Positions 108 through 30,406 of a stretch of DNA of 64,000 nt are shown one piece after another (positions within the stretch are counted from its first letter, which is position 1; every line of letters begins with the position of its first letter). The notes beneath the pieces are model-generated. The model ran no database searches, was not told where the DNA came from, and saw only the letters and a program-made list of their open reading frames with translations. The stretch covers positions 142,166,001-142,230,000 of the forward strand of contig NC_043000.1 of NCBI RefSeq assembly GCF_006345805.1, given 5' to 3'. Both the position numbers and the translations under genes were made by a program. The stretch comes from Octopus sinensis (taxonomy: Eukaryota).

Positions 108-210
108 TTAATCCCCAAAAATGAAGATAGGGTAAACAACAACGCAAGGACGTGGTAATGCAAAGTATTAAAAGACGCGCAGGGAAGGAAAGAAAGGGTG
201 TTTTACATGT
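108..210 (-). repeat. short interspersed repeat fragment abutting (TA)n; paralog of 35061-35158
   Basis: Shares ACAACAACGC(A/G)AGGACGTGG...AGTATTA...GACGC.CAGG.A.GAA with 35061-35158; both begin next to a (TA)n tract. Confidence 0.65.
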
Positions 211-247
211 GCGTATGAGTGCGTGTGTCAGTATGTATGTATGTATG

Positions 248-281
<34 letters not shown>

Positions 282-1469
282 TGTATGTATGTATGTTGAT
301 AAACGCGAGTGTATTCGTATGTATACTAACCCTATCGTTTCTTAATAACTATAGGATTAACAAATGCATACGTTAATTCAAATCGACATTGAGTTTATGC
401 ACTTCCAGTAAGATATGCTGTTACAATGTTTTATGTAAATATATTTCATTTTCTGCTTCTGTCATTCTATCTGACTCAATATGTTTATTTGTATATGTAC
501 ACATGTATATGCATGTATATGCATACAATCACAGCATATATGGAGAGAGAGCCCTCAACCATTCACGTAAATATAGATGAAGATATGTATGTATGGGTCT
601 GTGTATCTCATGATACTTATACATATACATATGTGAATATATATAACTTTCTGAGTATGCATAAATATACATGCATATATATGTACATATAAGTGTGTGC
701 GTGTGCGTCTGTGTGTATTTTTTATATGGGTTTGTGTGTGTGAATGTATATACATATACAAATATATACAAATATAGAATTCCATATATACATCTTACTT
801 AACGTATATAAAGTATAGGAAATCATATTGCTGCAATATTCACCTCAAGAGGTTTTCATGTATAGACGTATAGTGCTGAAAAGCAAACAAAAACGTATTG
901 GTAGCAGACGAAAAGTGTCTAGTAACGATGGTTGAATCGCCAGATTATGATATATTTTCTTTATGTGCTTCAAAGCCAAGAGTTTAAATTATCGACCATT
1001 GCTTCTCACTGAGGAAAGTCTTTGCGTTTTAACACTATACGTTTATGCAATGAGCTGCCTCAAGAAGAATACATCAGTTTATTATCTTTTGTAAAACACA
1101 CGTTAAGGGGGATATAGAGAATGCTTTATTGGGCCAATATGTATTCGGTCGCTAAAGACGAATTTTTACCTATACTGTGAGTTATTTGCAATGCTAGTGC
1201 TTTGTTAATCACAATTTTGCAATATCAGTAGAAGGAAAGCATAAGATTGATTGTAGATACTTGCTACTGATGACATGCAAAGGAATAGAAATTCTGATTT
1301 AATAATTTCCCCAACGCTGGTGAAGAAGTTTTGTTTGATACTGACACATTTTTCTGAATTTTAGTTCTTACGTCTACATGCGATGCTCACCAAAGACAAA
1401 TTCAGTTTTAGTGGTTTTCTGTATTATATATACGTTACGTAACGTATACACAATAGTTTGTTGTGAAAC

Positions 1470-1780
1470 ACTTATTTCTACTGCATTGAATGTGTTTTAC
1501 ATAGGATGTGTGCGGTGTCTAGTAGTACTATTTTCAGTATGTTATATACACTTGTAACTGCTGGTATATTTGTTATGTTTTTGTCTGAACAGCATTTTGT
1601 CATACCTAATGTGCCTGCTATGATAGGAATTGTTTCTGTTTTTAGACTCCACATTCAAGTTACCTCCATTTCCAGATCTTTGTATTTTAAAGTGTCTCCG
1701 TTTCTTTTAGTGTTGGCATAGTTTCTAGTGTATATAGATCCCAACTCTCACGAGTCCTTCTTAGCCAGGACTGTGCAGCA
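1470..1780 (-). mobile_element. Dong/R4-like RLE LINE, 3' end fragment (decayed)
   Basis: Minus strand reads KYKDLEMEVT*MWSLKTETIPIIAGTLGM...ILKIVLLDTAHIL and CTVLAKK, the C-terminal restriction-like endonuclease region of R4/Dong ORFs. Confidence 0.8.
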
Positions 1781-2150
1781 ACAAATATTCTGCTCGATAC
1801 CACAGATTTGCTTGTCCCTTGTTTAACCATAACCAGTTGAGCATGTCTCTTAGTGGTTGACGATATGTGCATCTCTGATCACGAGCAGAAGTGGTAGGGA
1901 AGCATTATAACCATGTGTTGAGAGGAATATTTTGACAAACTATCCAGAGACCTTTTGAGTGGAATAGGCTACTCGACCTGAAGAAAATTCTAACTGGGCC
2001 TCATCTTCAAGATCATGTGCTGTTTATCTTGATATGAGATCACCATGTCGCGCACATATCGTTGTGATGCATGTGCCTAGTGTACCCTTATCAGACGGGT
2101 AGTCATGATAGGTATACTGGGCTTTGATGACATGCACTGCTCTCTCACTC
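1778..2150 (+). mobile_element. partial copy of the 555-bp (AAT)n-associated non-coding element
   Basis: Reverse complement of much of 16486-17040 with internal deletions; ends ...CTCTCTCACTC followed by (AAT)n. Confidence 0.85.
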
Positions 2151-2166
2151 AATAATAATAATAATG

Positions 2167-2228
<62 letters not shown>

Positions 2229-2229
2229 T

Positions 2230-2260
<31 letters not shown>

Positions 2261-2265
2261 TAATA
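2151..2265. repeat. (AAT)n microsatellite
   Basis: Directly visible. Confidence 0.95.
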
Positions 2266-2269
2266 ACAA

Positions 2270-3495
2270 ACGCTTAAACTCATTAGCAATGACGTCGGGA
2301 TGGAGTTTGGCCTCGATAAGTGTGCTAAAGCAACGTTTCTAAGAGACAATCACAGACTTCCATTAAATTAGACACCGACACTACCATCAAGGAGCTTGAC
2401 CAACATGAAAGTTACAAATACCTGGGGATAAATGAAAGAGTGAGTATACAACATGCTACTATAAAGGGAAAAAGTAACAAAGGTGTACTATAAGAGAATA
2501 AGACTTATATTTAAAACTGAACACAATTCCAAAATTAGCATCGAGGCCACTAACATCCTAGCACTTCCAATAGTCCAATGCAGTATTAACATCATTCACT
2601 GGAATCCTACGGAGCGCCAACGCCAGGATAGGAAGACAAGAAAACTGCTATCATCTAAACGTAGATTCAGTGAAACATTTGACGAAATAATAAACCATCT
2701 CAATTCGAGATGCCCTGTGCCGACAACAAACGAATACAGAAACCGCCGCGATAGGGTAGAACAGTATTTACATTGGAAAATGTGGAAACAGTACAAAATC
2801 AGCACTCCTGCTTACAGGTATGAACATCATCCTGAGACAGTCGTTGAAGGCAAAAATGTTACAATCCTCTTGGATTTTCCAGTCAATACCGACATAATGA
2901 TGAAGGCTAATCGACCAGACTCTATCAATAAGGACAGGGAAGAAAATACTTGTAGATGTATAGGTGTAAATATATCTGTAAAGAACTTGAGAAATTAAAT
3001 AAATATAAGTACCTGGAAATTGAAATGTAAAATATGTGGCATCTTAAAGCGAGAAATGTTACTGTTATTGTGGTTGCCCAATATATGATATAAAAGGGAT
3101 GTCAGAAACATCTAAATAAAATACCAGGAGAACCATTTCTCAGAGAAAGAACTGTTCCTGTTATTGTGGGTGCCCTAAATTTGATATTAAAAAATGGATT
3201 TCAGAACCATATAGGCAAAAGCTCAAGAGAAGCATGCCTCAGAAAAATCCAAATGATTGTTCTGAGACGTACTGTCCACATCCTTAAAACAATCCTATCA
3301 ATTTAAATGTCTATATTGTATTACATGAAAATATTTCGTTACTGCTCCTGCCACTTCCCCTCCTCAATCTTTGAGTCATACTTTAACAGTTCTTATCCTT
3401 TACTCACACTAGGACGCTGGATGTATCCTGGCAAGTGATTGCAATAAACATGCAGATTAAAAATAACCAACAAACACAACAATCATAATAATAGG
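2270..3495 (+). mobile_element. Dong/R4-like non-LTR retrotransposon, 5'-truncated pseudogene (RT end, RHD region, PD-(D/E)xK endonuclease, 3' UTR)
   Basis: Motifs ISNDVGMEFGLDKCAK, SYKYLGINE, DRKTRKLL, RRDRVEQYLHWK, ILLDFPVNTD..KANRPD, KYKYLEIE with frameshifts and stops; AAT-like tail. Confidence 0.85.
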
Positions 3496-3559
3496 AATAT
3501 TAATTATAGTAAGATTATAGTAGTCTAACGCTATGTTTAACGAAAGTTAAATATCTAGT

Positions 3560-3960
3560 TCGAAGCGGGAAAGCATGTGTATATCATGTGTATCATATTG
3601 CAGGAGAAATTGCTTGCTTAGCACTTAATATTGACAGTAGAAGAAACAACGTGTCCCCTGACGAGAAATCTCTTTATTATAATCTTAACCGTTTCTGAAA
3701 CTGTCAAAAATCTTCAAAAACGCTTCACTAGATGAAAACTTATTTAGAAAAATCTTTTCTTTCAAACATAGGAAATGAAAACACCACTTCTGAAAATAAA
3801 TTTTTCTGGGAGCCCGAAACCAGGAATATTAGAGGCGGTATTAAATGGTGTATAATAAGAAGTACATTGCCATATAATGGGAGGAGACTAAAATACAAGG
3901 ACATTGCATATCCTTAGATCCAAATCTATCATATTAAAGAAAAGGAAAGAATTAATATAA
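3560..3960 (+). mobile_element. Penelope-like element GIY-YIG endonuclease remnant (Naiad-like)
   Basis: IFKKRF-like (frameshifted) followed by ENTTSENKFFWE...IKWCIIRSTLPYNG, resembling the PLE endonuclease C-terminal pattern TxLSKYIWELK...IKWxIL...PYN. Confidence 0.5.
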
Positions 3961-5221
3961 CTTAGAATTTTAAAACCTTCTCGAATAAACGGAGGATTTA
4001 TTAGTGTTCCCTTATATAAATTCTAGTGTCTGCTTTCCTTCTTCAAGTATAGTTAGTATATTAGTTAACCAGTATTAACTAGTAGTTATACAAATATTTG
4101 TTTTATCTAAGTATGTTATTTGATTATTTTATCTCGTTATTTATCAATTTTATCTGCTTATTTCTTCTAATCGTTTTATTAATGATTTTAGTTAAATTTC
4201 TAAATACTATTATTGTTAATTATTCTCATTACATTCTATTTGAGTTGAGGTTATTGTTATTCTTAAGTAATTTTAAAGTTAATTGTAATTAGATTCTTTA
4301 ATTGTTATTTTTGTAATTATGTTTAATTACTCTTTTATTCTTAATTGCCTTTAAATTTATTTTATAATTTATTGATTTATTTTTACCTTAGTTTTTAACT
4401 GAACTTGAATCTTAACCTCATTACAAGTATTTTAATTTCTCATTTTTATTCCTTTAAGGAAAATAATTCTTTTGGAATATAATACCTTCCCATGTAAATA
4501 ATATTGCAGTTATTTTCTGTTAGTTCTTACAGTAACTATTCTCTTGTTTTCTACTTATAGTTTATTTGCTAGATTTAATACTGATCGAATGACATCTCGT
4601 TTGGAACCTAAATTATTACATACTGATTAACTTGGTTCTACTTTCCTACCCTCTCTATTTGCGATGGTCATCAATAATTTAAATAGGATAATAATTTTTG
4701 TCATGAACACTCTTTAAGTTGTCGTGTGGAACTTAGGATATTAAATATGTAACACTTGTAGAATTATCTAATAAACACTGTTCTCAAGTAGGTCTGTAGA
4801 TATACCTCCCATACGTTTTACGCTGGTGAAATACCAAAAGAGATGTGATATACCTTTGATAAAGCTAGGGTGGTGTTAATTTTCTCTATCGCTATAGAAT
4901 CATCATCCATTAAATATGGTGATCGATTAATATGCAAGATTACTACATCGCAGAATTTTTTTAAATGCCAACGATTGTGAAACGTGCGTAAGCAAATTAA
5001 AGTGTGCACGTTTTTCCATCCTTTGTGCATTTCTTCTGTATTTTGTGAATTATACTAATTTATTTACTAATTTATTATACTAATTTATTTAAAAGTTTCT
5101 TTCGTTTTGCTGAATTAAGCCCGTATATGTTCTGTCAAAAACTGAGAAGTCCATCTTAGATATACTGAAAGAACGAAGCAAACTCTGACTTTCTTCGTAT
5201 ACCCACCCAGCCCAACCCCAC

Positions 5222-5438: not shown

Positions 5439-5780
5439 TACAGTGTACATTTAAACAAATAAGGAATCCACTAATAGAAATCAACATGCTAGAAAGAACA
5501 GCTAGGTTCAATAACCACAAAATTAGGGATAAAATCTCGACATGAAAAAGTAAACACTTTTACCATCTAGTTTCCTGGACCAATTGACTTCTGATTTCAG
5601 CTTAAAAACTAAAATCAGAAACCAATTGGTCCAGGAAACTGGATGGTAAAAGTGCTTATTTTGTCAATTCTTTCCTGTCGGGATTTTATCCCTAATTTTA
5701 TGGTTATTGAACCTAGGTGTTATTTCTAGCCTGTTGAATTCCACGAGTGGATTCCTTATGTGTTTAAATGTACACTGTAT
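5438..5780. repeat. about 340-bp imperfect palindrome (arms about 165 bp, tiny loop near 5603)
   Basis: ATACAGTGTACATTTAAACA...TTCCTGGACCAATTG..TTCTGATTT mirrors AAATCAGAAACCAATTGGTCCAGGAA...TGTTTAAATGTACACTGTAT. Confidence 0.9.
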
Positions 5781-10915: not shown

Positions 10916-11054
10916 ATACAAAGTAGATATAGGCATACACAGAGAAAACAGGAGCACACGCATGCCCCCCCCCCACACACACACAGTTATGTATGTGCTT
11001 ATGTATGTGTATATTTGGCAATTCAGCGCGTGTGTATATGTTGCACTTACTATA

Positions 11055-11598
11055 ATTTTAAAATTATATTTATAAAATGATATACTTCGTATTAATTTCT
11101 ACCTTAATTGGTTTTTCACTCTGGCTACTTGATAAAACCTTATATAGATAAAATATTATATATATACTTGAGTTTTATTGATAAATATTAAACTAGAATT
11201 CATTCAGTGCATTATTGTGGTTATTCACAAGTGGCTGAGATGAACAAACTAGATTTCTCACTTGTATATAAGAGCATATACTAATATGATATTTGTACAT
11301 CCTCTGTGGATAAGCTGTATTCGTATAGTATATATAAATGTTTATATTCATGTATTTGTGATTATGTCATACTGATGATACGAGAGTGTATTACTTCACT
11401 AACCTTGAAATCGTTCGATACATGACTAAACATTTTCAAACAGTCTTCTGTTCATTCTCTTAATTTCAGCGTGTGTGTGTATGTGATAAATTAGTTTAGA
11501 GCCATTTGACGTCTTCTTCCAGTGTGTGGCATTACCTCTCGTAATTGTCCCTATTAAAATTTTATAATTATAGTTATAAAATTATATACTTCGTATTA
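11055..11598 (+). mobile_element. hammerhead-bearing non-coding element with 40-bp terminal direct repeat (retrozyme-like or PLE pLTR-like)
   Basis: Direct repeats 11055-11094 and 11559-11598 (37/40 identical, period 504); internal hammerhead at 11366-11426; homologous to 25921-26380. Confidence 0.6.
11366..11426 (+). ncRNA. type I hammerhead ribozyme motif (partly decayed)
   Basis: GTCATA-CTGATGA-[28-nt stem II with AGTG/CACT]-GAAA-TCG TT CGA-TA-CATGAC; complete core, stem I GTCAT/ATGAC with one mismatch at its base. Confidence 0.6.
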
Positions 11599-13488: not shown

Positions 13489-14190
13489 CACTGAACCGCA
13501 GAAGAAACGCGAGACGTGTGTGGGTGGGTGTGAAATATGCTTTCATTATGTCAGAGATGAATTTTGATAAATTTAATAAAAATCAATTTCTTAGATGCTC
13601 TTTGACCACAGCCTATGGGTCGTTTTTATCTGGTAATGGGGGTATCCAACACATCGAGATTGTAAGGCATGACATATTCAATACCAAGTATGCCCTCCGT
13701 GCATGTTCAAAACCACCATATACCATCAGTACACTGAGTGCATGAGGCGGTCTACAAAAGCTATTGGCACCTGTGCCCACACCTTGAAGAAAACTACCTC
13801 CTGTTCCACATGAGTTGTCGGACTTGGGACCATCTGGTTCAGCCGTCTCTGGATTTCATCCCACATGTTTCCATTCGGGTTCAAATCTGGGCTGAGAGCC
13901 CGCCATGGCATGGGTCTTATGTTGTTCTGATGCAAGAAGTCCATGGTGAACCTGGCCGTGTGAGAGGGAACATTATCCTGCTGGAACACGTGGCTATGGT
14001 GACGCATGAAGAAAGGCATGATGTGAGGTCTTAGGACCGGGTGAACGTAAACCTGGGCTATGATGTCATTCCCTCTACCTGCATCAACATTTTGGAACAT
14101 ATGGGCCCAATTCTCTGATTTAGGCCTATAACACCCCAAATCATGATGCTTTGGCCACTCCACATGTCTCTCTCCATGACACATGCGTCT
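13489..14190 (-). mobile_element. Tc1-like transposon 3' portion with decayed DDE transposase
   Basis: VFQQDNVPSHT...WRALSPDLNPNGNMWDEIQRRL (catalytic E lost); terminus TA-CACTGAACCGCAGAAGAAACG. Confidence 0.85.
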
Positions 14191-16350
14191 CTGTATCGTA
14201 TATCAGCCGAAACGTTGTGTCAACAAATTAGATGAGGACAGATATCCATCAAATGTAAATAATATACATTATGTACATAATACCTCATATCTTAAATATA
14301 GAACCTCATTAAATATGAGTAACGGTGTATTTAATTATTTATATTTCATTATCTATGTTATACCGCACTTAACTCTATGTTGCGTATGCAGATCTCTCTC
14401 TAGAAAACCCACGGAAAATATTTCTAGTTTTCAAAAATATGGGAAAATTGACATTGAATATATGAAAAAGGAATGCTACGCTTTAGAATGTATTCTTATC
14501 ACTAAATAATATAGAATAACATCTTGGGATACATTTTCAGTTATTTGAATAACAAATTAAATCAGACGCACAAACAGAGGTATTTTACATATTTTTTTAA
14601 TATTCTGCTACTACATTTTCTATGATAATGTATTTCACCTTAACTGTGATTACGTTATTTAAAAAAAAATTCGTTTTTGAAATATTTATTTTCTTCTTTG
14701 ATATCCTGATAAAACCTTCATGAACTCTCAGACAGTTATAATGATATTTAGATTTAATATAGTTAACAAAGATTCACACACACGCTGTTGATGATATCTC
14801 TCTATTAGTTATTCAAACGTGTTCTAGCAACAAAATTTCAAAAAAATATTTTATTCATTTTCATTTCTTCCAAGTATATTGGAACATACTGTTTTATTCA
14901 CATCTACATATTGCTAGTATCCAGATATATCATTAATTTCCAATAACATTCTTTATACGCTTGATATTTTTTTCACCAGAAGCTAATTTTTTCTAAGAAG
15001 TGATATAGATAAATTAGCTGGTTGCAAGATAATTAGTGGTGCTTTTCGAAAATCATAGAGATTTTATTTATGTTTTTGTATCATGAGAATGGAAATTATT
15101 TTGAAAAATGTGCTAAAAAGAGTGAATGATGAGTCGTTATTTTCGTTTATTATTCTCTGCTAATGTTGCTTCAAACCTTATTAGATTCCCATAGTTGAGA
15201 AACTGTTCCTAATATAATAATGATTGATATAACAAAGGTCATTTAAATGCCAGACGAGATGCTTAGTGTCTCCAACTAGGATAAAAGCACTTCTTAAAAG
15301 GCGCCATAAACAATAGTGCATTTTGTTTTTCCGGAAATGTGAGAGAGACTATTAGCTTTATCCTATAAAGTGTTAGTCAGTGAGTAGAAGGAATATCGGT
15401 GTAACTATTTTTTCCTTCTTGGATTAGAAAATATGGAGGTCAACAAAAAAAAACAGAAAATAAGACCAAATATATTTCCATAAAAATGTAATTTTGTATA
15501 ACACATTTGCATACTATATTTTTGACAATATTCTGTAAAATAGGTTGAAGTAATAATGACAGACATGCTGTTTCCTCATGATATATTAAATGATCGTTGG
15601 CAGGAGATACTGCTACCATCTAAGGAGAAAAATACGTGAATGGCAAGTTGGTTCAGTTATCAACGTTTTAGTCACGAAATATGAATGTTAGAGTGTGTAG
15701 CATTCTTATAAGTTACCTTTAGGCGATGCAGTATAATTCATAGAATATGAGACTGTTTGCTGCAAGATTTTAGTTCCCCTCGGTCTGAAATCATTCGAAA
15801 GGAGTTCCACGGGTATAAATATAAACATACAATATAATATACAATAACATACATTTACCATTTACATGGTGAAATGTATACTTGTGCACTTTATTTAAAT
15901 AATCTGCTACCTAAGAAATACTCTTAATAGAGATCGGACAAATACAGTTGGGTTTTAATAATGACATCTAATGTGGACACGCCAGCAACTGTGTAAAGCT
16001 ATCGATTCAGCTGATACCATCGCTGCCAGTATTAAACTGATAAGTTCTGTTTGTTTTCTCGACTTCGAAAGGACGAATGGCAAAGCTAACCTCGATAGGT
16101 TTTCAACTCACAATGTAAAGAGCTGGAACCACTATCATAAACTCTATTCCGGTGCTGTAACTATTTTACAATGAAGAGATCGTAGGTGATCGCACTGGAT
16201 CATTACATCCCAGAGGATTTTGCAGTTATAATTTTCTGTAATTCGTTCTGGGTTTTGATCATACCACGGTTTTCCTCTGGGGTTTGTTCACACCACGTCC
16301 TTGTTCTTGGGGTTTATTCATACTACGTTTTACCCTCAGAACACGTCTTT

Positions 16351-23039: not shown

Positions 23040-24512
23040 CTCTTATTCGATAGGGTCGGCTATCGCTACTTGGAAGCTGTCCTGAAAGCTAGTAGTTTCG
23101 GACCCATTTTCAGGGGCTGGATCGCTCTAATGCACAGAGGCACCTGTTCAGTGGTCGAAGTAAACGGCCACCTATCGGAGCCGTTTGGCATTGCATGCTC
23201 GGTCCGTCAGGGCTGCCCGTATTGGTACTCGAGCCAGTGCTGCGGAAGATGGAACAGCTAAGAAGCATCCCATAGCAACTGAGACAAAGAAGGGTAGTGC
23301 CAGCATGTGCAGACAACGTCACTGACATAGTGTCAGATACTCCGAAGTGGAGATGTTCGGCACCATCATAAAAGAATATGAATCGGCGGCAGGGGCTAAA
23401 ATCAATGCCGACAAATCAGTTGGTTTGCGGTTGGGCTTCAGGAGAGGGATGAAGATGCCATCGGATTGCGTCGTCGGACGCTGGACCGACGGGCCAGTTA
23501 CAGTGCTTGGGATCTGGTTTGGTCCCGACCTTCACATTGATAAGAACTGGGAGGAGGTGACGAACAGGGTGGCCAGTTTTACCCAGAAATGGGCTGAAAG
23601 AAAACTGCCTCCGTTGTTGTTTATGGCCTGAACATCGTGCCTTGTCCCGGTTACTACTTTTCCAAATTGGAGTGTCTCTTATTTAAATTCTTCTTATTTA
23701 AAGGGACGCGTTTTAATGGTCAAGCGGTAAGTCTGTTGTCAGCATCTCTGAGTGGTGGATTAGGTATGCTGTGGCTCCTAATGCGCAGACACACCCTTAG
23801 GTTAAGCTACCTACAACGATTTCTGGACGGTGAGCGTGCGTGGGATCCTTTTGTGAGACTCGTCTTTCTGAAGCTCTTCTCCTTGATAGATCTGCAGTTC
23901 TGGGTGAAGAGAAGTCTGAAACTACGCGCCTGGCACCTAGAATATCGTCATGCATTCACAACCCTCTACCAGCCGGGCAATGGAATCTGTAGATGTTCTG
24001 CTTTGGAAATTTATAGAGGATTAGTGGCGGGACGTGCAACGGCGTGCTCGGGGAGACTCTGTGCGCCGACAAGAACGAACCGGGTAATCTGTTCCGGATG
24101 ACTTTCCCGTCGGGATCTATCATGGATGATTTCCAGATGTCCTTGGCCTGGCCGTGCTACCGTGGGCACTGCCAGTTTGAGATAAACTCTGTATGCATGG
24201 ATGTTCTGTCCGACTGGCTTGTCCGACGTGCCTGCAGAGTAAGGAAACTGTTCTGCACGCCCTCGTTCAGTGTCCGGGCATTGCTGACTTGAGGGGTTAT
24301 GCTGAACAGCAGCTGTCACGTGTGGTACGGAATTCGTCTGTCAGCCAAGTCTGTAGTGATGATCGCACCACGGCCCTCCTTCAATCGGGCAGGTAAGGCA
24401 CTTTTCCTTTGCCTGGTAGCTGCGGTGAAAGAGGTTCTTTGTTGGACAGTGCTGAAAGGCACAGGGACAGATACATTCCTCTTTGGTACAGCTCTCATTG
24501 ACTTTATAAGGG
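23040..24512 (+). mobile_element. L1/Tx1-like LINE ORF2 pseudogene (RT and C-terminal region)
   Basis: FDRV...FGPIFRGWI...VNGHLSEPF..SVRQGCP, CADNVT (YADD-like), GAKINADKS, LGIWFG, GGLGM, CPTC...ETVLHALVQCP; GC-rich island with many frameshifts. Confidence 0.85.
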
Positions 24513-24514
24513 TC

Positions 24515-25252
24515 TAATCTGTGCTGCCCAAGAGCAAGCACCAAGAACAAACTACATAGAATACAGAATAAATAGCACATTAGAAAGTGATAATTACAGA
24601 ATCTGTGGACAAAACGGTGCAACCGCATGGCATATTACCAGCCAATGTACGTCACTAGACCAGAAGGAATATCAGAGACGTCACGGCATTATAGCCAGGC
24701 ATTTTTATTGGACACTTTGCAACAAGTATGGACTTGACAGAGCAAAAATTTGGTAAGACTACAAACCTAAAAGCATTTTTGAAAATAGAAATGCAAAGAT
24801 CCTATGGGATTTTATGATTCAGTGCGATTATGAGATAGAGAATAGGAAGCCGGACATAGTCTTAATTGAGAAAGAAAACTATGCTGGATCATAGATATAG
24901 TATACCCAGCTGACAACAAGGTATGCTATAAGGAAGAAATGTCGAGAGATGTGACAGGTTAGCTTGGGAAGTTATGTAGTTGAGGTCAAGGAAGAGGGTA
25001 GCAGTAGTACCAATAATTCTCAGAGACCTGGGAACAGTGAGCAGCAATCTCGAGAAGTACGTGGAACAAATAGGGGCTGCAATAAGTGTCGAGCACTTGC
25101 AGAAAACAGCACTGCTTCGAACCGCTCAAATACTCAGGAAGGTGCTGGAAAAATAAGAGGTGTTACCTTAGTTCACTTGTTGGGAACAGCTGACACTGTT
25201 GTACATCTCCAGCGTTAGCAGCTGCGTAAATGTAAGAATAATAATAATAATA
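24515..25252 (+). mobile_element. Dong/R4-like RLE LINE 3' fragment with (AAT)n tail
   Basis: AQEQAPRTNY, RICGQNG, EYQRRH, KILWDFMIQCD..IENRKPDIVLIEK. Confidence 0.85.
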
Positions 25253-25440
25253 AATGCTGTACCAGTCAGAGGCTCTCATAGCTTCTCATCTTAACTTATT
25301 GGAGGTGTTATCATGTACATTGTATTTTTTTAGTATAAAAAATGGGCTACAGCAAATATTTTGCTTGACAGTTGTTTCACATTAACTAGTTGAGCATGTA
25401 CCTTAATATATGCTTTGTGCATCTCAGTTCACTAGCAGAA
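25253..25440 (+). mobile_element. 5' fragment of the 555-bp (AAT)n-associated element
   Basis: ATGC.GTACCAG...GGCTCTCAT.GCTTCT.ATCTTAACT...GTGTTATCATGTACATTG matches the reverse complement of 16940-17035. Confidence 0.8.
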
Positions 25441-25920
25441 GATATACCGAAGCGCTCAAGAACATTGGGCTATCGGAGGGATACGAAAAATAATGAGAAG
25501 CAAAAAACGGGTTATCAATACTTATATAATAAGATATATTCCGTTGTAAATATATTACGTGCACAAAATCGTACAATAAAAATATATAGATATATAAATA
25601 TTTCAAAACTACATTAAAAATATATAACTATATATTAATACAAATACACTGAAATTGTTAAAAGATTAATATTTCAATTAAATCTTGTAAAAGCTTGGAT
25701 TACACTTTCTTCTCTAACACTTCACTTCTAATATTATTGATAGCATCATATTAATACTACTCTATAAGAAAAAATACATAACACACGCGTCCGTTAATGT
25801 TAAGTGTAGCTCTTTATAAAGTCTATCAATTAGGAATTCTACCACATTCGCATAACATATGTAAACCTATCAGTTGCTAACTTCCCCGAAGAAGGAGGCG
25901 ATGGTTTTTATTCCGAGGAA

Positions 25921-26380
25921 ACAAGTTATACTGAGATGCAATTCGTAAAAGCCCGGAATTTACATAGATGTATAAAAGGTGAACATTTATGTATGCTACG
26001 TCAGATACATTGGTTGTTCGTCTGGTATGTTGATTTTTGGTCATTCATTATAAATCTTGAATTATGCGTGCACTGACGATTAAGAAGTGCATTTCTGCAC
26101 TAATTATGAAATCATGTGATTTGCAGCTGAATTCTGTTTTTAAGCGGCCAGCTTCGAGAGTTCTATTCCCTCGCTTTCGGTACGATGTGTTTATTTATTT
26201 TGGTAGTTTTGACTTTAAGAGTCCCTCCTAGCGTGTGGTATTTATATATAGTAATGCCCTCTATATGATATAAATAAATATATTTAAGAGAAAAATTGTT
26301 GGATTTTTCTCTTATGAGGTTTTTCACGCAAACTACTTGATAAATTCATATAAAGATTTTATCCTATTTTTAAGTTGTAA
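25921..26380 (+). mobile_element. second, circularly permuted copy of the hammerhead-bearing element
   Basis: Shares ACAAGT..CTGAGATG, a TATA-like box, the hammerhead, AG.GTGTGG.ATT...GTAAT and GGTTTTTCAC....CTACTTGATAAA with 11055-11598; ends at (TA)n. Confidence 0.6.
26059..26134 (+). ncRNA. type I hammerhead ribozyme motif
   Basis: TGCA-CTGACGA-[TTAAGA AGTGCA TTTC TGCACT AATTAT]-GAAA-TCA TG TGA-TT-TGCA; stem I extends via GC/GC and GAATT/AATTC. Confidence 0.65.
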
Positions 26381-26412
26381 ATATATATATATTATGTATA
26401 TATTATATATAT

Positions 26413-29822: not shown

Positions 29823-30406
29823 AAGGCGGCGAGCTGGCAGAATTGTTAGCACACCGGGCGAAATACTTAGCGGTATTTCGTCTGCTGCTACGCTCTGAGT
29901 TCAAATTCCGCCGAGGTCGACTTTGCCTTTCATCATTTCGGGGTCGATTAAATAAGTACCAGTTACGCACTGGGGTCGATATAATCGACTTAATCCATTT
30001 GTCTGTCCTTGTTTGTCATCTCTGTGTTTAGCCCCTTATGAGTAGTAAAGATATAGGTATTTCGTCTGTCGCTACGTTCTGAGCTCAAATTCCGCCGAGG
30101 TCGACTTTGCATTTCATCCTTTCGGGGTCGATTAAATAAGTACCAGTTATACACTGGGGTCGATGTAATCGACTTCATCCGTTTGTCTGTCCTTGTTCGT
30201 CCTCTCTGTGTTTAGCCCCTTGTGGGTAGTAAAGAAATAGGTATTTCGTCTGTCTTTATGTTCTGAGATCAAATTCCGCCGAGGTCGACTTTGCCTTTCA
30301 TCGTTTCAGGGTCGATGAATTAAGTACCAGTTGCGTACTGGGGTCGATCTAATACAATGGTCTCCTCCCAAAAACTTTCGGGCCTTGTGCCTAGTGTAGA
30401 AAAAAA
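29823..30406 (+). mobile_element. SINE family B with triplicated 184-bp body
   Basis: One head, then GGTATTTCGTCTG units at 29872, 30056 and 30240; B-box GAGTTCAAATTCC in each unit. Confidence 0.9.

What the first reader, a model, noticed from the sequence alone, without database searches (positions are those of the whole stretch)
25921..26380. Second hammerhead element: covariation and circular permutation relative to 11055-11598
Seen: primary sequence is strongly diverged, yet the core, domain lengths and pairing are kept with different bases (stem I TGCA/TGCA vs GTCAT/ATGAC; stem III TCA/TGA vs TCG/CGA). The TATA-like box is 102 nt upstream of the core here and 107 nt in the first copy. 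The block GGTTTTTCAC....CTACTTGATAAA lies downstream of the ribozyme here (about 26318-26345) but upstream of it in the first copy (about 11110-11137). Inference: selection on RNA structure, and copies derived from a circular or tandem template entered at different points.
Basis: partly seen in the sequence, partly recalled or inferred. Interest (0 to 1): 0.8.

Follow-up and report, generated by a model that had tools for sequence, protein, structure and literature searches.

The report
Permuted hammerhead retrozyme in octopus-like DNA
Two diverged copies of a roughly 500-base non-coding repeat, each carrying a hammerhead (self-cutting RNA) motif whose base pairs are kept by matched changes, start at different points of the same unit; they belong to a many-copy family that is likely a retrozyme, a small parasitic element predicted to spread through circular or tandem RNA copied by Penelope-type retrotransposons, a kind already known from other animals.

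Summary
Copy 2 (about 25901/25929-26380) and copy 1 (11048-11598) are permutations of one ~500-nt non-coding unit: copy 2 aligns end to end to a dimer of copy 1 (score 149; 0 of 200 shuffles above 76), and copy 1 is 1.09 units with a 47-bp terminal repeat. Each holds a complete type I hammerhead core; 7 of 24 modelled pairs change on both sides (1 of 500 shuffles). The ribozyme is atypical: U.U at the base of stem II, loop 2 an internal loop capped by a second hairpin (28-nt spacer), near-palindromic stem III suited to dimer cleavage; Rfam misses it. Public contigs show a high-copy dispersed family, with ends running into (TA)n and inverted junctions. Best reading: a non-LTR retrozyme, i.e. 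a non-autonomous Penelope-like element. Cleavage, circles and the driving element are untested; a linear tandem template explains the permutation as well as a circle. The TATA box is weakly supported. Known kind, apparently unreported host group and ribozyme shape; interest 0.4.

The parts
25929..26380 (+). Copy 2 of the ~500-nt unit (about 0.9-0.98 unit; alignment to copy 1 can be traced from 25901 to 26394)
   Evidence: Alignment to copy-1 dimer; depth of related contigs rises from 168 to 4067 at 25929 and falls after 26372
26059..26134 (+). Type I hammerhead of copy 2: distal stem I 26059-63/26130-34, internal loop 1 (AU/UG), stem I 26066-72/26122-27 with bulge 26068, core 26073-79 and 26108-11, predicted cut after 26121
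   Evidence: model fold -16.4 vs MFE -18.2 kcal/mol
26080..26107 (+). Bipartite stem II: U.U, 3 bp, 2x2 purine internal loop, 6-bp cap, tetraloop
   Evidence: 2 compensatory pairs in the basal stem, 5 of 6 cap pairs invariant; cap pair probability 0.6-1.0 in three contexts
26111..26120 (+). Stem III, near-palindrome of 10 nt
   Evidence: Hairpin +1.1 kcal/mol, self-duplex -8.6; 92% of related depth reads A at 26116, which makes the palindrome perfect
25971..25978 (+). TATA-like word 102 nt before the core (function unshown)
   Evidence: weak
26285..26314 (+). 12-bp AT-rich hairpin just before the conserved block
26318..26344 (+). Conserved block GGTTTTTCAC-N5-CTACTTGATAAA, the longest exact words shared by the two copies
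   Evidence: highest related depth
26381..26498 (.). (AT)n microsatellite abutting the 3' end of copy 2
11048..11598 (+). Copy 1: one 504-nt unit plus 47-nt terminal redundancy (1.09 units), flanked by microsatellites
11048..11094 (+). Left copy of the terminal repeat (42 of 47 identical to 11552-11598)
11552..11598 (+). Right copy of the terminal repeat
11110..11136 (+). Conserved block, upstream of the ribozyme in this copy
11362..11430 (+). Type I hammerhead of copy 1: core 11372-78 and 11407-10, predicted cut after 11420; three pairs near the core broken (2.1-1.1, one in each part of stem II)
   Evidence: model fold +3.8 vs MFE -13.2 kcal/mol, so probably decayed

Best explanation
The two stretches are permuted copies of one many-copy, ~500-nt non-coding repeat with a type I hammerhead motif, and are likely insertions of a non-LTR retrozyme, a non-autonomous Penelope-like element whose RNA would be cut by the ribozyme and copied back into DNA from a circular or tandem template. 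Shown: the unit, its permutation, the terminal redundancy of copy 1, the conserved core with compensatory pairs, many related copies, TA-repeat neighbours. Inferred: (1) source loci with two or more units are transcribed through; (2) two ribozymes pair through the palindromic stem III and cut after H17, releasing a ~500-nt monomer; the purine internal loop of stem II probably docks on the internal loop of stem I as loops 1 and 2 do in ordinary hammerheads; (3) a host RtcB-type ligase closes the monomer, restoring the cut site, as shown in vitro for axolotl and mussel retrozymes (PMC7229834); (4) the reverse transcriptase/GIY-YIG protein of an autonomous Penelope-like element nicks (TA)n DNA and copies the RNA for about one round from a variable start, giving 0.9-unit (copy 2) or 1.09-unit (copy 1) insertions. 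These two loci hold one ribozyme each and are probably end products, not sources.
For: Permutation and redundancy. Core and covariation; a descriptor with at least 2 basal stem II pairs gives 3 hits in the window, and 0 of 300 shuffles give 2 or more (one of the 3, at 1267, has no stem II hairpin). Dimer-type stem III: as described for animal type I hammerheads (PMC4209133; PMC7229834). Family: 4672 contigs of run X1 laid on 25300-26380; summed depth about 100x the single-copy level (37-40) at 25929-26002, 290-780x at 26003-26187, 4,000-12,000x at 26188-26372 (an order-of-magnitude sign only, not a copy number). Other copies run into TA repeats at 26260 (25 contigs) and 26379 (8), and 5 of 15 joints shown change strand, 1 goes back 274 nt (11 more not shown); inverted and partial-tandem insertions and (TA)n preference are PLE traits (PMC8557442). 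Hydra-clade PLE hammerheads often read ctgatgat...tgaa with a 4-bp stem III and 1-2-nt loop (File S2 of PMC8557442), like these. The three shown majority differences inside 26066-26127 (26068, 26084, 26116) all fall on unpaired positions of the model (40 of 146 rows shown). No coding sign: the 80-codon frame that ends at the core has no Pfam match; GC 29-31%.
Against: Neither locus has two ribozymes, so neither meets the 'active retrozyme' criterion of Li et al. 2026. No autonomous partner was found: the block words do not occur in the PLE consensus files of PMC8557442 and the octopus Hydra-1 ribozyme is different. The strong 3' bias of depth fits 5'-truncated copies of a linear template at least as well as a circle. 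The units do not fold better than shuffles as circles (z -1.3 and -1.1), whereas described retrozyme circles are called highly self-paired. In 200-450-nt contexts stem I of both copies has pairing probability 0; copy 1's model fold is 17 kcal/mol above its MFE; with U at 17, copy 2 can extend stem III into the core (cofold). No target-site duplication found. No Rfam hammerhead match. Covariation rests on two sequences.
Confidence: 0.7

Rival explanations
1. The copies are solo pseudo-LTR / 3' UTR pieces of an autonomous Penelope-like element. Permutation comes from the usual partial-tandem, 5'-truncated insertion of a linear RNA; no independent small element or circle is needed.
For: Depth is 10-20 times higher over the last 190 nt than over the ribozyme, as with 5' truncation from a fixed 3' end. 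PLE hammerheads lie in the pLTR and most occur as single motifs of truncated copies (PMC4209133). A few contigs continue 25781-25928 upstream (depth 88-211). Strand-changing joints are a PLE trait.
Against: In copy 1 the sequence after the 3' block runs straight into the sequence before the ribozyme and closes after 504 nt with no ORF. Ends differ: +178 (copy 1), about +259 (copy 2), TA-joined ends at +139 in other copies. No PLE ORF in the window.
Confidence: 0.2
2. The unit spreads at the DNA level (satellite arrays, unequal crossing over, excised DNA circles, or rolling-circle DNA transposition); the ribozyme is an inherited passenger from an old PLE end.
For: DNA circles or array fragments also give permuted, terminally redundant copies; Li et al. 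2026 discuss array growth by unequal crossover and found cleavage in only 1 of 9 tested Xenopus dimers. The best-conserved part is the 3' block, not the ribozyme.
Against: Seven compensatory pairs with an invariant core at 61% identity mean that the RNA fold was under selection while the subfamilies diverged. The copies are dispersed single units.
Confidence: 0.07
3. Host-domesticated ribozymes regulating local transcripts, or a chance resemblance in AT-rich DNA.
For: Copy 2 shows no broken pair in the model; the locus including its left edge is nearly identical in runs under two organism labels (X1, X5).
Against: Chance is excluded. The surroundings are microsatellites and transposon remnants; copy 1 has broken pairs and terminal repeats that differ at 5 of 47 positions; copy 2 differs from the family majority at 17 or more positions.
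Confidence: 0.03

Closest known systems
Metazoan non-LTR retrozymes (Cervera and de la Pena 2020, PMC7229834; parts 2-4 of 6 of the text read, supplement unreadable)
   Same: Non-coding, AT-rich unit with one type I hammerhead, short stem III with palindromic loop, many genomic copies; axolotl HHR_Amex2 also has U.U at the base of stem II; mollusc (mussel) example exists; PLEs proposed as drivers.
   Different: Unit about 500 nt vs 170-400 nt in invertebrates; seen here as permuted single units, not arrays; stem II bipartite with a 28-nt spacer; circle fold not better than shuffles; expression, cleavage and circles not shown.
Retrozymes as non-autonomous PLE derivatives (Li, Clavereau and Pollet 2026, 10.64898/2026.07.22.740005; parts 1-3 of 5 read)
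   Same: Families of 51-972 bp with dispersed monomers; origin from pLTRs.
   Different: No mollusc sampled; their pipeline needs two tandem units; no pLTR partner identified here.
Hydra-clade Penelope-like elements (Craig et al. 2021, PMC8557442; passages and supplement parts 2, 24, 25, 52 plus searches read)
   Same: Type I hammerhead often with U before and after stem II, 4-bp stem III with 1-2-nt loop, H17 = A/U/C, (TA)n preference, tandem and inverted insertions; present in Octopus.
   Different: Those are autonomous, with simple stem II hairpins; Hydra-1_Obim's ribozyme and 3' end do not resemble this unit by eye, and the block words are absent from the files.
PLE pLTR hammerheads (Cervera and de la Pena 2014, PMC4209133; parts 1-2 of 4 read)
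   Same: Long stem II, palindromic positions 15.2-16.2, dimer cleavage, proposal that circles template more-than-unit reverse transcription.
   Different: Their minimal motifs have G10.1-C11.1, 7-8-bp simple stem II, short stem I without loop 1; this one has a 6-bp stem I with an internal loop.

Membership tests
Type I hammerhead ribozyme | Core CUGANGA, GAA, A15.1-U16.1, H17 | tested here: met
   Both copies
Type I hammerhead ribozyme | Three stems around the core, stem I open | tested here: met
   7 compensatory pairs of 24, 1 of 500 shuffles; copy 1 has 3 broken pairs near the core
Type I hammerhead ribozyme | 10.1-11.1 base pair (usually G-C) | tested here: not met
   U.U in both; a described, tolerated natural variant (PMC3088659 passage; PMC7229834)
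Type I hammerhead ribozyme | Loop 1-loop 2 tertiary contact | tested here: inconclusive
   Loop 1 starts U(G/A) 6 pairs from the cut and ends AU in both; loop 2 sits 4 positions from the core and ends in A; the consensus compared against is recalled
Type I hammerhead ribozyme | Match to an Rfam hammerhead model | tested here: not met
   None at E<=1 in the window or E<=10 in 25950-26250
Type I hammerhead ribozyme | Self-cleavage | not testable with these tools
   Needs an assay
Metazoan non-LTR retrozyme | Small non-coding unit, GC under 50%, one type I hammerhead per unit | tested here: met
   504 nt, GC 29-31%, no Pfam match in the longest frame at copy 2
Metazoan non-LTR retrozyme | Many genomic copies | tested here: met
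   Thousands of related contigs in runs X1 and X5
Metazoan non-LTR retrozyme | Head-to-tail tandem units with two or more ribozymes | tested here: inconclusive
   1.09 and about 0.9 units here; one go-back joint in another copy; no genome held
Metazoan non-LTR retrozyme | Highly self-paired monomer | tested here: inconclusive
   62% paired, z -1.3 and -1.1 vs 60 shuffles; copies are decayed
Metazoan non-LTR retrozyme | Expressed as linear and circular RNA | not testable with these tools
   Only contigs available; they cannot show ends, strand or circles
Penelope-like element (autonomous) | ORF with RT and GIY-YIG endonuclease | tested here: not met
   No such ORF among 43 frames of 100 aa or more by inspection; 5 frames scanned in Pfam, none PLE
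Penelope-like element (autonomous) | Partial-tandem/inverted insertions, microsatellite targets | tested here: met
   Terminal redundancy, (AT)n flank, 5 strand-changing joints of 15 shown and TA loose ends
Penelope-like element (autonomous) | Sequence homology to a described pLTR | tested here: inconclusive
   Block words 0 hits in the files of PMC8557442 (line breaks can hide hits); Repbase/Dfam not available

The most novel reading that the evidence does not exclude
A cephalopod retrozyme family with thousands of permuted copies uses a hammerhead of a shape that motif searches miss (internal loop 2 capped by an extra hairpin, docking on internal loop 1), and the same long-spacer hammerhead is what lies behind the 'half cores' of Naiad Penelope-like elements, which are thought to lack ribozymes: the squid Naiad_Esco consensus has CTGATGA, a 45-nt spacer, then GAAATCATGCAGTGATTGCAGGTGA, close to GAAATCATGTGATTTGCAGCTGA here (compared by eye; its stems I and II are not evident). 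The start and end points of the copies would then be a genomic record of rolling-circle reverse transcription and would make the untested circle-template model of retrozyme and PLE mobility directly testable.
Probability: 0.15. Interest if true: 0.68.

Novelty: new variant of a known kind. Interest (0 to 1): 0.4.

Why it matters
The kind is described and the circle-template model is in print, so the core finding is expected. What it adds: an apparently unreported host group (no cephalopod retrozyme in the searches), a hammerhead shape outside Rfam and outside the 7-17-nt spacer used for PLE core searches, and single-unit permuted insertions with a short terminal overlap, which are the footprint that more-than-one-round copying predicts. 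A family this large in an assembled genome would allow a statistical test of circle versus linear tandem template, a step that the retrozyme papers infer but do not show.

Tried and rejected
Own-genome search: no genome held, so no alignment of genomic copies and no R-scape-like test. More copies in the window: none by nhmmer, covariance model R1 (next best E 1.5) or block search. Block pattern in metagenome and genome collections: 1 hit each; L001 is the pattern alone in what reads as a bacterial gene, L002 is a bacterial genome and was not examined beyond the descriptor scan; both treated as chance. Core pattern in viral contigs: 101 hits, 8 of 103 loci pass the descriptor, best R1 E 0.057 over 80 of the 101 loci; no relative of the unit. 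Expression: no RNA holder listed; runs X12 and X17, only guessed to be RNA, hold related contigs across the ribozyme, which shows neither transcription nor circles; the deepest X17 contig there has a changed core and gaps in stem III. Target-site duplications: none of 7 nt or more other than microsatellite words. Terminal redundancy or an inverted 5' piece in copy 2: best scores 39-51, within the shuffled range. Bacterial promoter scan: irrelevant to this host. Host identity by a repeat motif in papers: 0 hits; 'octopus-like' rests on recall of the 184-bp repeat and the microsatellite load. Earlier findings: none for this genome or sequence (one search gave one unrelated 3-word match). The supplement of PMC7229834 could not be read and bioRxiv supplements are closed; either may already show a similar ribozyme or a cephalopod example.

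Full report
Setting. The window is AT-rich (27-40% GC), holds 63 tandem-repeat rows and several transposon remnants; no genome is held for it. I read it as octopus-like DNA from recall of its 184-bp repeat and microsatellite load; a paper search for that motif gave nothing, so the host is not established by a call.

The observation. A descriptor scan gives three hits on the + strand (1267, 11372, 26073) and none on the - strand; the first has no stem II hairpin. In 300 shuffles the mean is 0.17 hits, 2 shuffles reach two hits, and none does when two basal stem II pairs are required. A sequence-only alignment gives the structural register directly, with its one gap at the stem I bulge. Of 24 modelled pairs 7 change on both sides (4 in stem I, 2 in basal stem II, 1 in stem III), 11 are invariant and 6 are unpaired in copy 1 (3 in distal stem I, 3 near the core); 1 of 500 shuffles is as high and slid controls give 0-2. 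A rough binomial with the background mismatch rate gives 4e-7 to 8e-4 for rates of 0.25-0.45. The test has two sequences and a structure drawn from them.

Permutation. Copy 1 is a 504-nt unit with a 47-nt terminal repeat, 42 of 47 identical. Copy 2 aligns collinearly over about 495 nt to a dimer of that unit (score 149, 321 of 527 columns) but only to score 93 against the linear copy; 0 of 200 shuffles reach either, and the best of 84 real window pieces scores 81. Relative to the predicted cut, copy 1 spans -373 to +178 and copy 2 about -221/-193 to +259/+273. Both carry the cut site intact in their middle, so the template was not a cut linear monomer: it was a re-joined circle or an uncut tandem RNA (or DNA). 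The TATA-like words are at the stated distances but are common here and not in exact register.

The ribozyme. Stem I has 6 pairs, then an internal loop (AU/UG in copy 2, AU/UA in copy 1), then up to 5 more pairs in copy 2. Stem II opens with U.U, has 3 pairs, a 2x2 purine loop and a 6-pair cap. Both internal loops sit where loops 1 and 2 of ordinary hammerheads sit (consensus recalled), so I infer a loop-loop contact with an extra cap. Stem III is unstable as a hairpin (+1.1 kcal/mol) and stable as a self-duplex (-8.6 and -7.2), the mark of dimer cleavage (PMC4209133; PMC3088659 passages). U.U at 10.1-11.1 is a described variant. Against activity of these particular copies: stem I has probability 0 in wider contexts, copy 1's model fold is far above its MFE, and U17 in copy 2 allows stem III to extend into the core. 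Rfam finds no hammerhead.

The family. Twenty of 24 listed runs, under four organism labels, hold part of copy 2. Laying four runs at 80% likeness shows single-copy depth of 37-40 on the left flank in X1 and summed depth about 100-fold higher from 25929, 290-780-fold over 26003-26187 and 4,000-12,000-fold over 26188-26372 (ratios). The tool warns that this is no copy number; it mixes abundance with conservation. At 17 of the 40 rows shown (146 in all) about 90% or more of related depth differs from the window; the three inside 26066-26127 are the bulge, the stem II internal loop and loop 3, and the last makes stem III a perfect palindrome. None of the shown rows hits the core. Other copies run into TA repeats at 26260 (25 contigs) and 26379 (8); the first could also be expansion of an internal TA patch. 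Of 15 joints shown (11 more hidden) 5 change strand, 9 skip and 1 goes back 274 nt, each in one or two contigs at about single-copy depth. Contigs crossing the left edge with 0 and 2 differences occur in X1 and X5.

Mechanism and rivals. The anatomy matches animal non-LTR retrozymes (PMC7229834), now argued to be non-autonomous PLE derivatives (10.64898/2026.07.22.740005), and the insertion traits match PLEs (PMC8557442). I put 0.7 on a retrozyme moved by a PLE from a circular or tandem RNA; steps 1-4 of the best explanation are inferred from those papers, none is shown here. The 3' depth bias keeps the solo-pLTR reading alive (0.2). DNA-level spread (0.07) does not explain the covariation; domestication or chance (0.03) fits poorly. 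The driver is unknown. Hydra-clade ribozymes share the flanking U residues and stem III shape, but Hydra-1_Obim itself differs. The Naiad_Esco consensus has a stem III and 3' strand much like copy 2's, 45 nt after a CTGATGA, a by-eye lead only.

Novelty. Searches for 'hammerhead ribozyme'+'octopus' (5 papers), +'cephalopod' (4) and 'retrozyme'+'octopus' (3) listed no description of such a family; a 2026 repeat annotation of Octopus vulgaris mentions no ribozyme in its main text (PMC13282606, find only). The library lacks most subscription papers, Repbase and Dfam, and the supplement of PMC7229834 was unreadable. For other papers named in those listings I saw the listing only. Verdict: real, correctly observed, a new variant of a known kind; interest 0.4.

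Noticed in passing
window 25300-25400: A separate, very high-copy repeat fragment (summed depth 350,000-560,000 in X1), unrelated to the unit.
   Followed up: no
window 25781-25928: Low plateau of related contigs (depth 88-211 vs 40) directly upstream of copy 2; could be a longer form of the unit or another low-copy repeat. An 80-codon frame 25834-26073 runs from it into the ribozyme core; no Pfam match.
   Followed up: partly
window 11022-11041 vs 11465-11484: A 20-nt match (17 of 20; 1 of 1967 random pieces as good) suggests that the 5' piece of copy 1 began earlier in the unit and lost about 60 nt; the words are GT-rich, so it may be microsatellite noise.
   Followed up: partly
window 26285-26314 and 11073-11094: A hairpin just before the conserved block in both copies, perfect in copy 2 and weak in copy 1, with unrelated sequence; possible 3' recognition signal.
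   Followed up: partly
window 24500-25254: Broken frames that read like the 3' end of a LINE with a restriction-like endonuclease (…KPDIVLIEK…), ending in an (AAT)n run; family R4/Dong by recall.
   Followed up: no
window 23300-24500: GC-richer remnant that reads like a LINE reverse-transcriptase C-terminal part (Tx1/L1 by recall); two frames gave no Pfam match.
   Followed up: partly
window 13726-14202 (-): DDE transposase remnant (PF13358, E 6e-4, below the curated cut-off).
   Followed up: partly
window 29872-30353 and about 61734: 2.6 tandem copies of a 184-bp unit and a further copy elsewhere; recalled as a common octopus short interspersed repeat.
   Followed up: partly
window 5541-5668: Long, nearly perfect inverted repeat of about 128 nt; Rfam MIR3440 score far below its gathering threshold; probably a MITE-like element.
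   Followed up: no
L046 and L062, about 498-553 (-): Two near-identical viral contigs with a hammerhead-like core, a 31-nt spacer folding at -12.6 kcal/mol, U.U closing and 4 of 5 stem I pairs; no Rfam match, R1 E 0.99. Found by a pattern that fixes the core, so possibly chance.
   Followed up: partly
PMC8557442 File S, Naiad_Esco 3' end: CTGATGA, 45 nt, then a GAAA-stem III-3' strand much like copy 2's; Naiad_Ovul is flagged HHR_half_core. Long-spacer hammerheads may be hidden in Naiads.
   Followed up: partly
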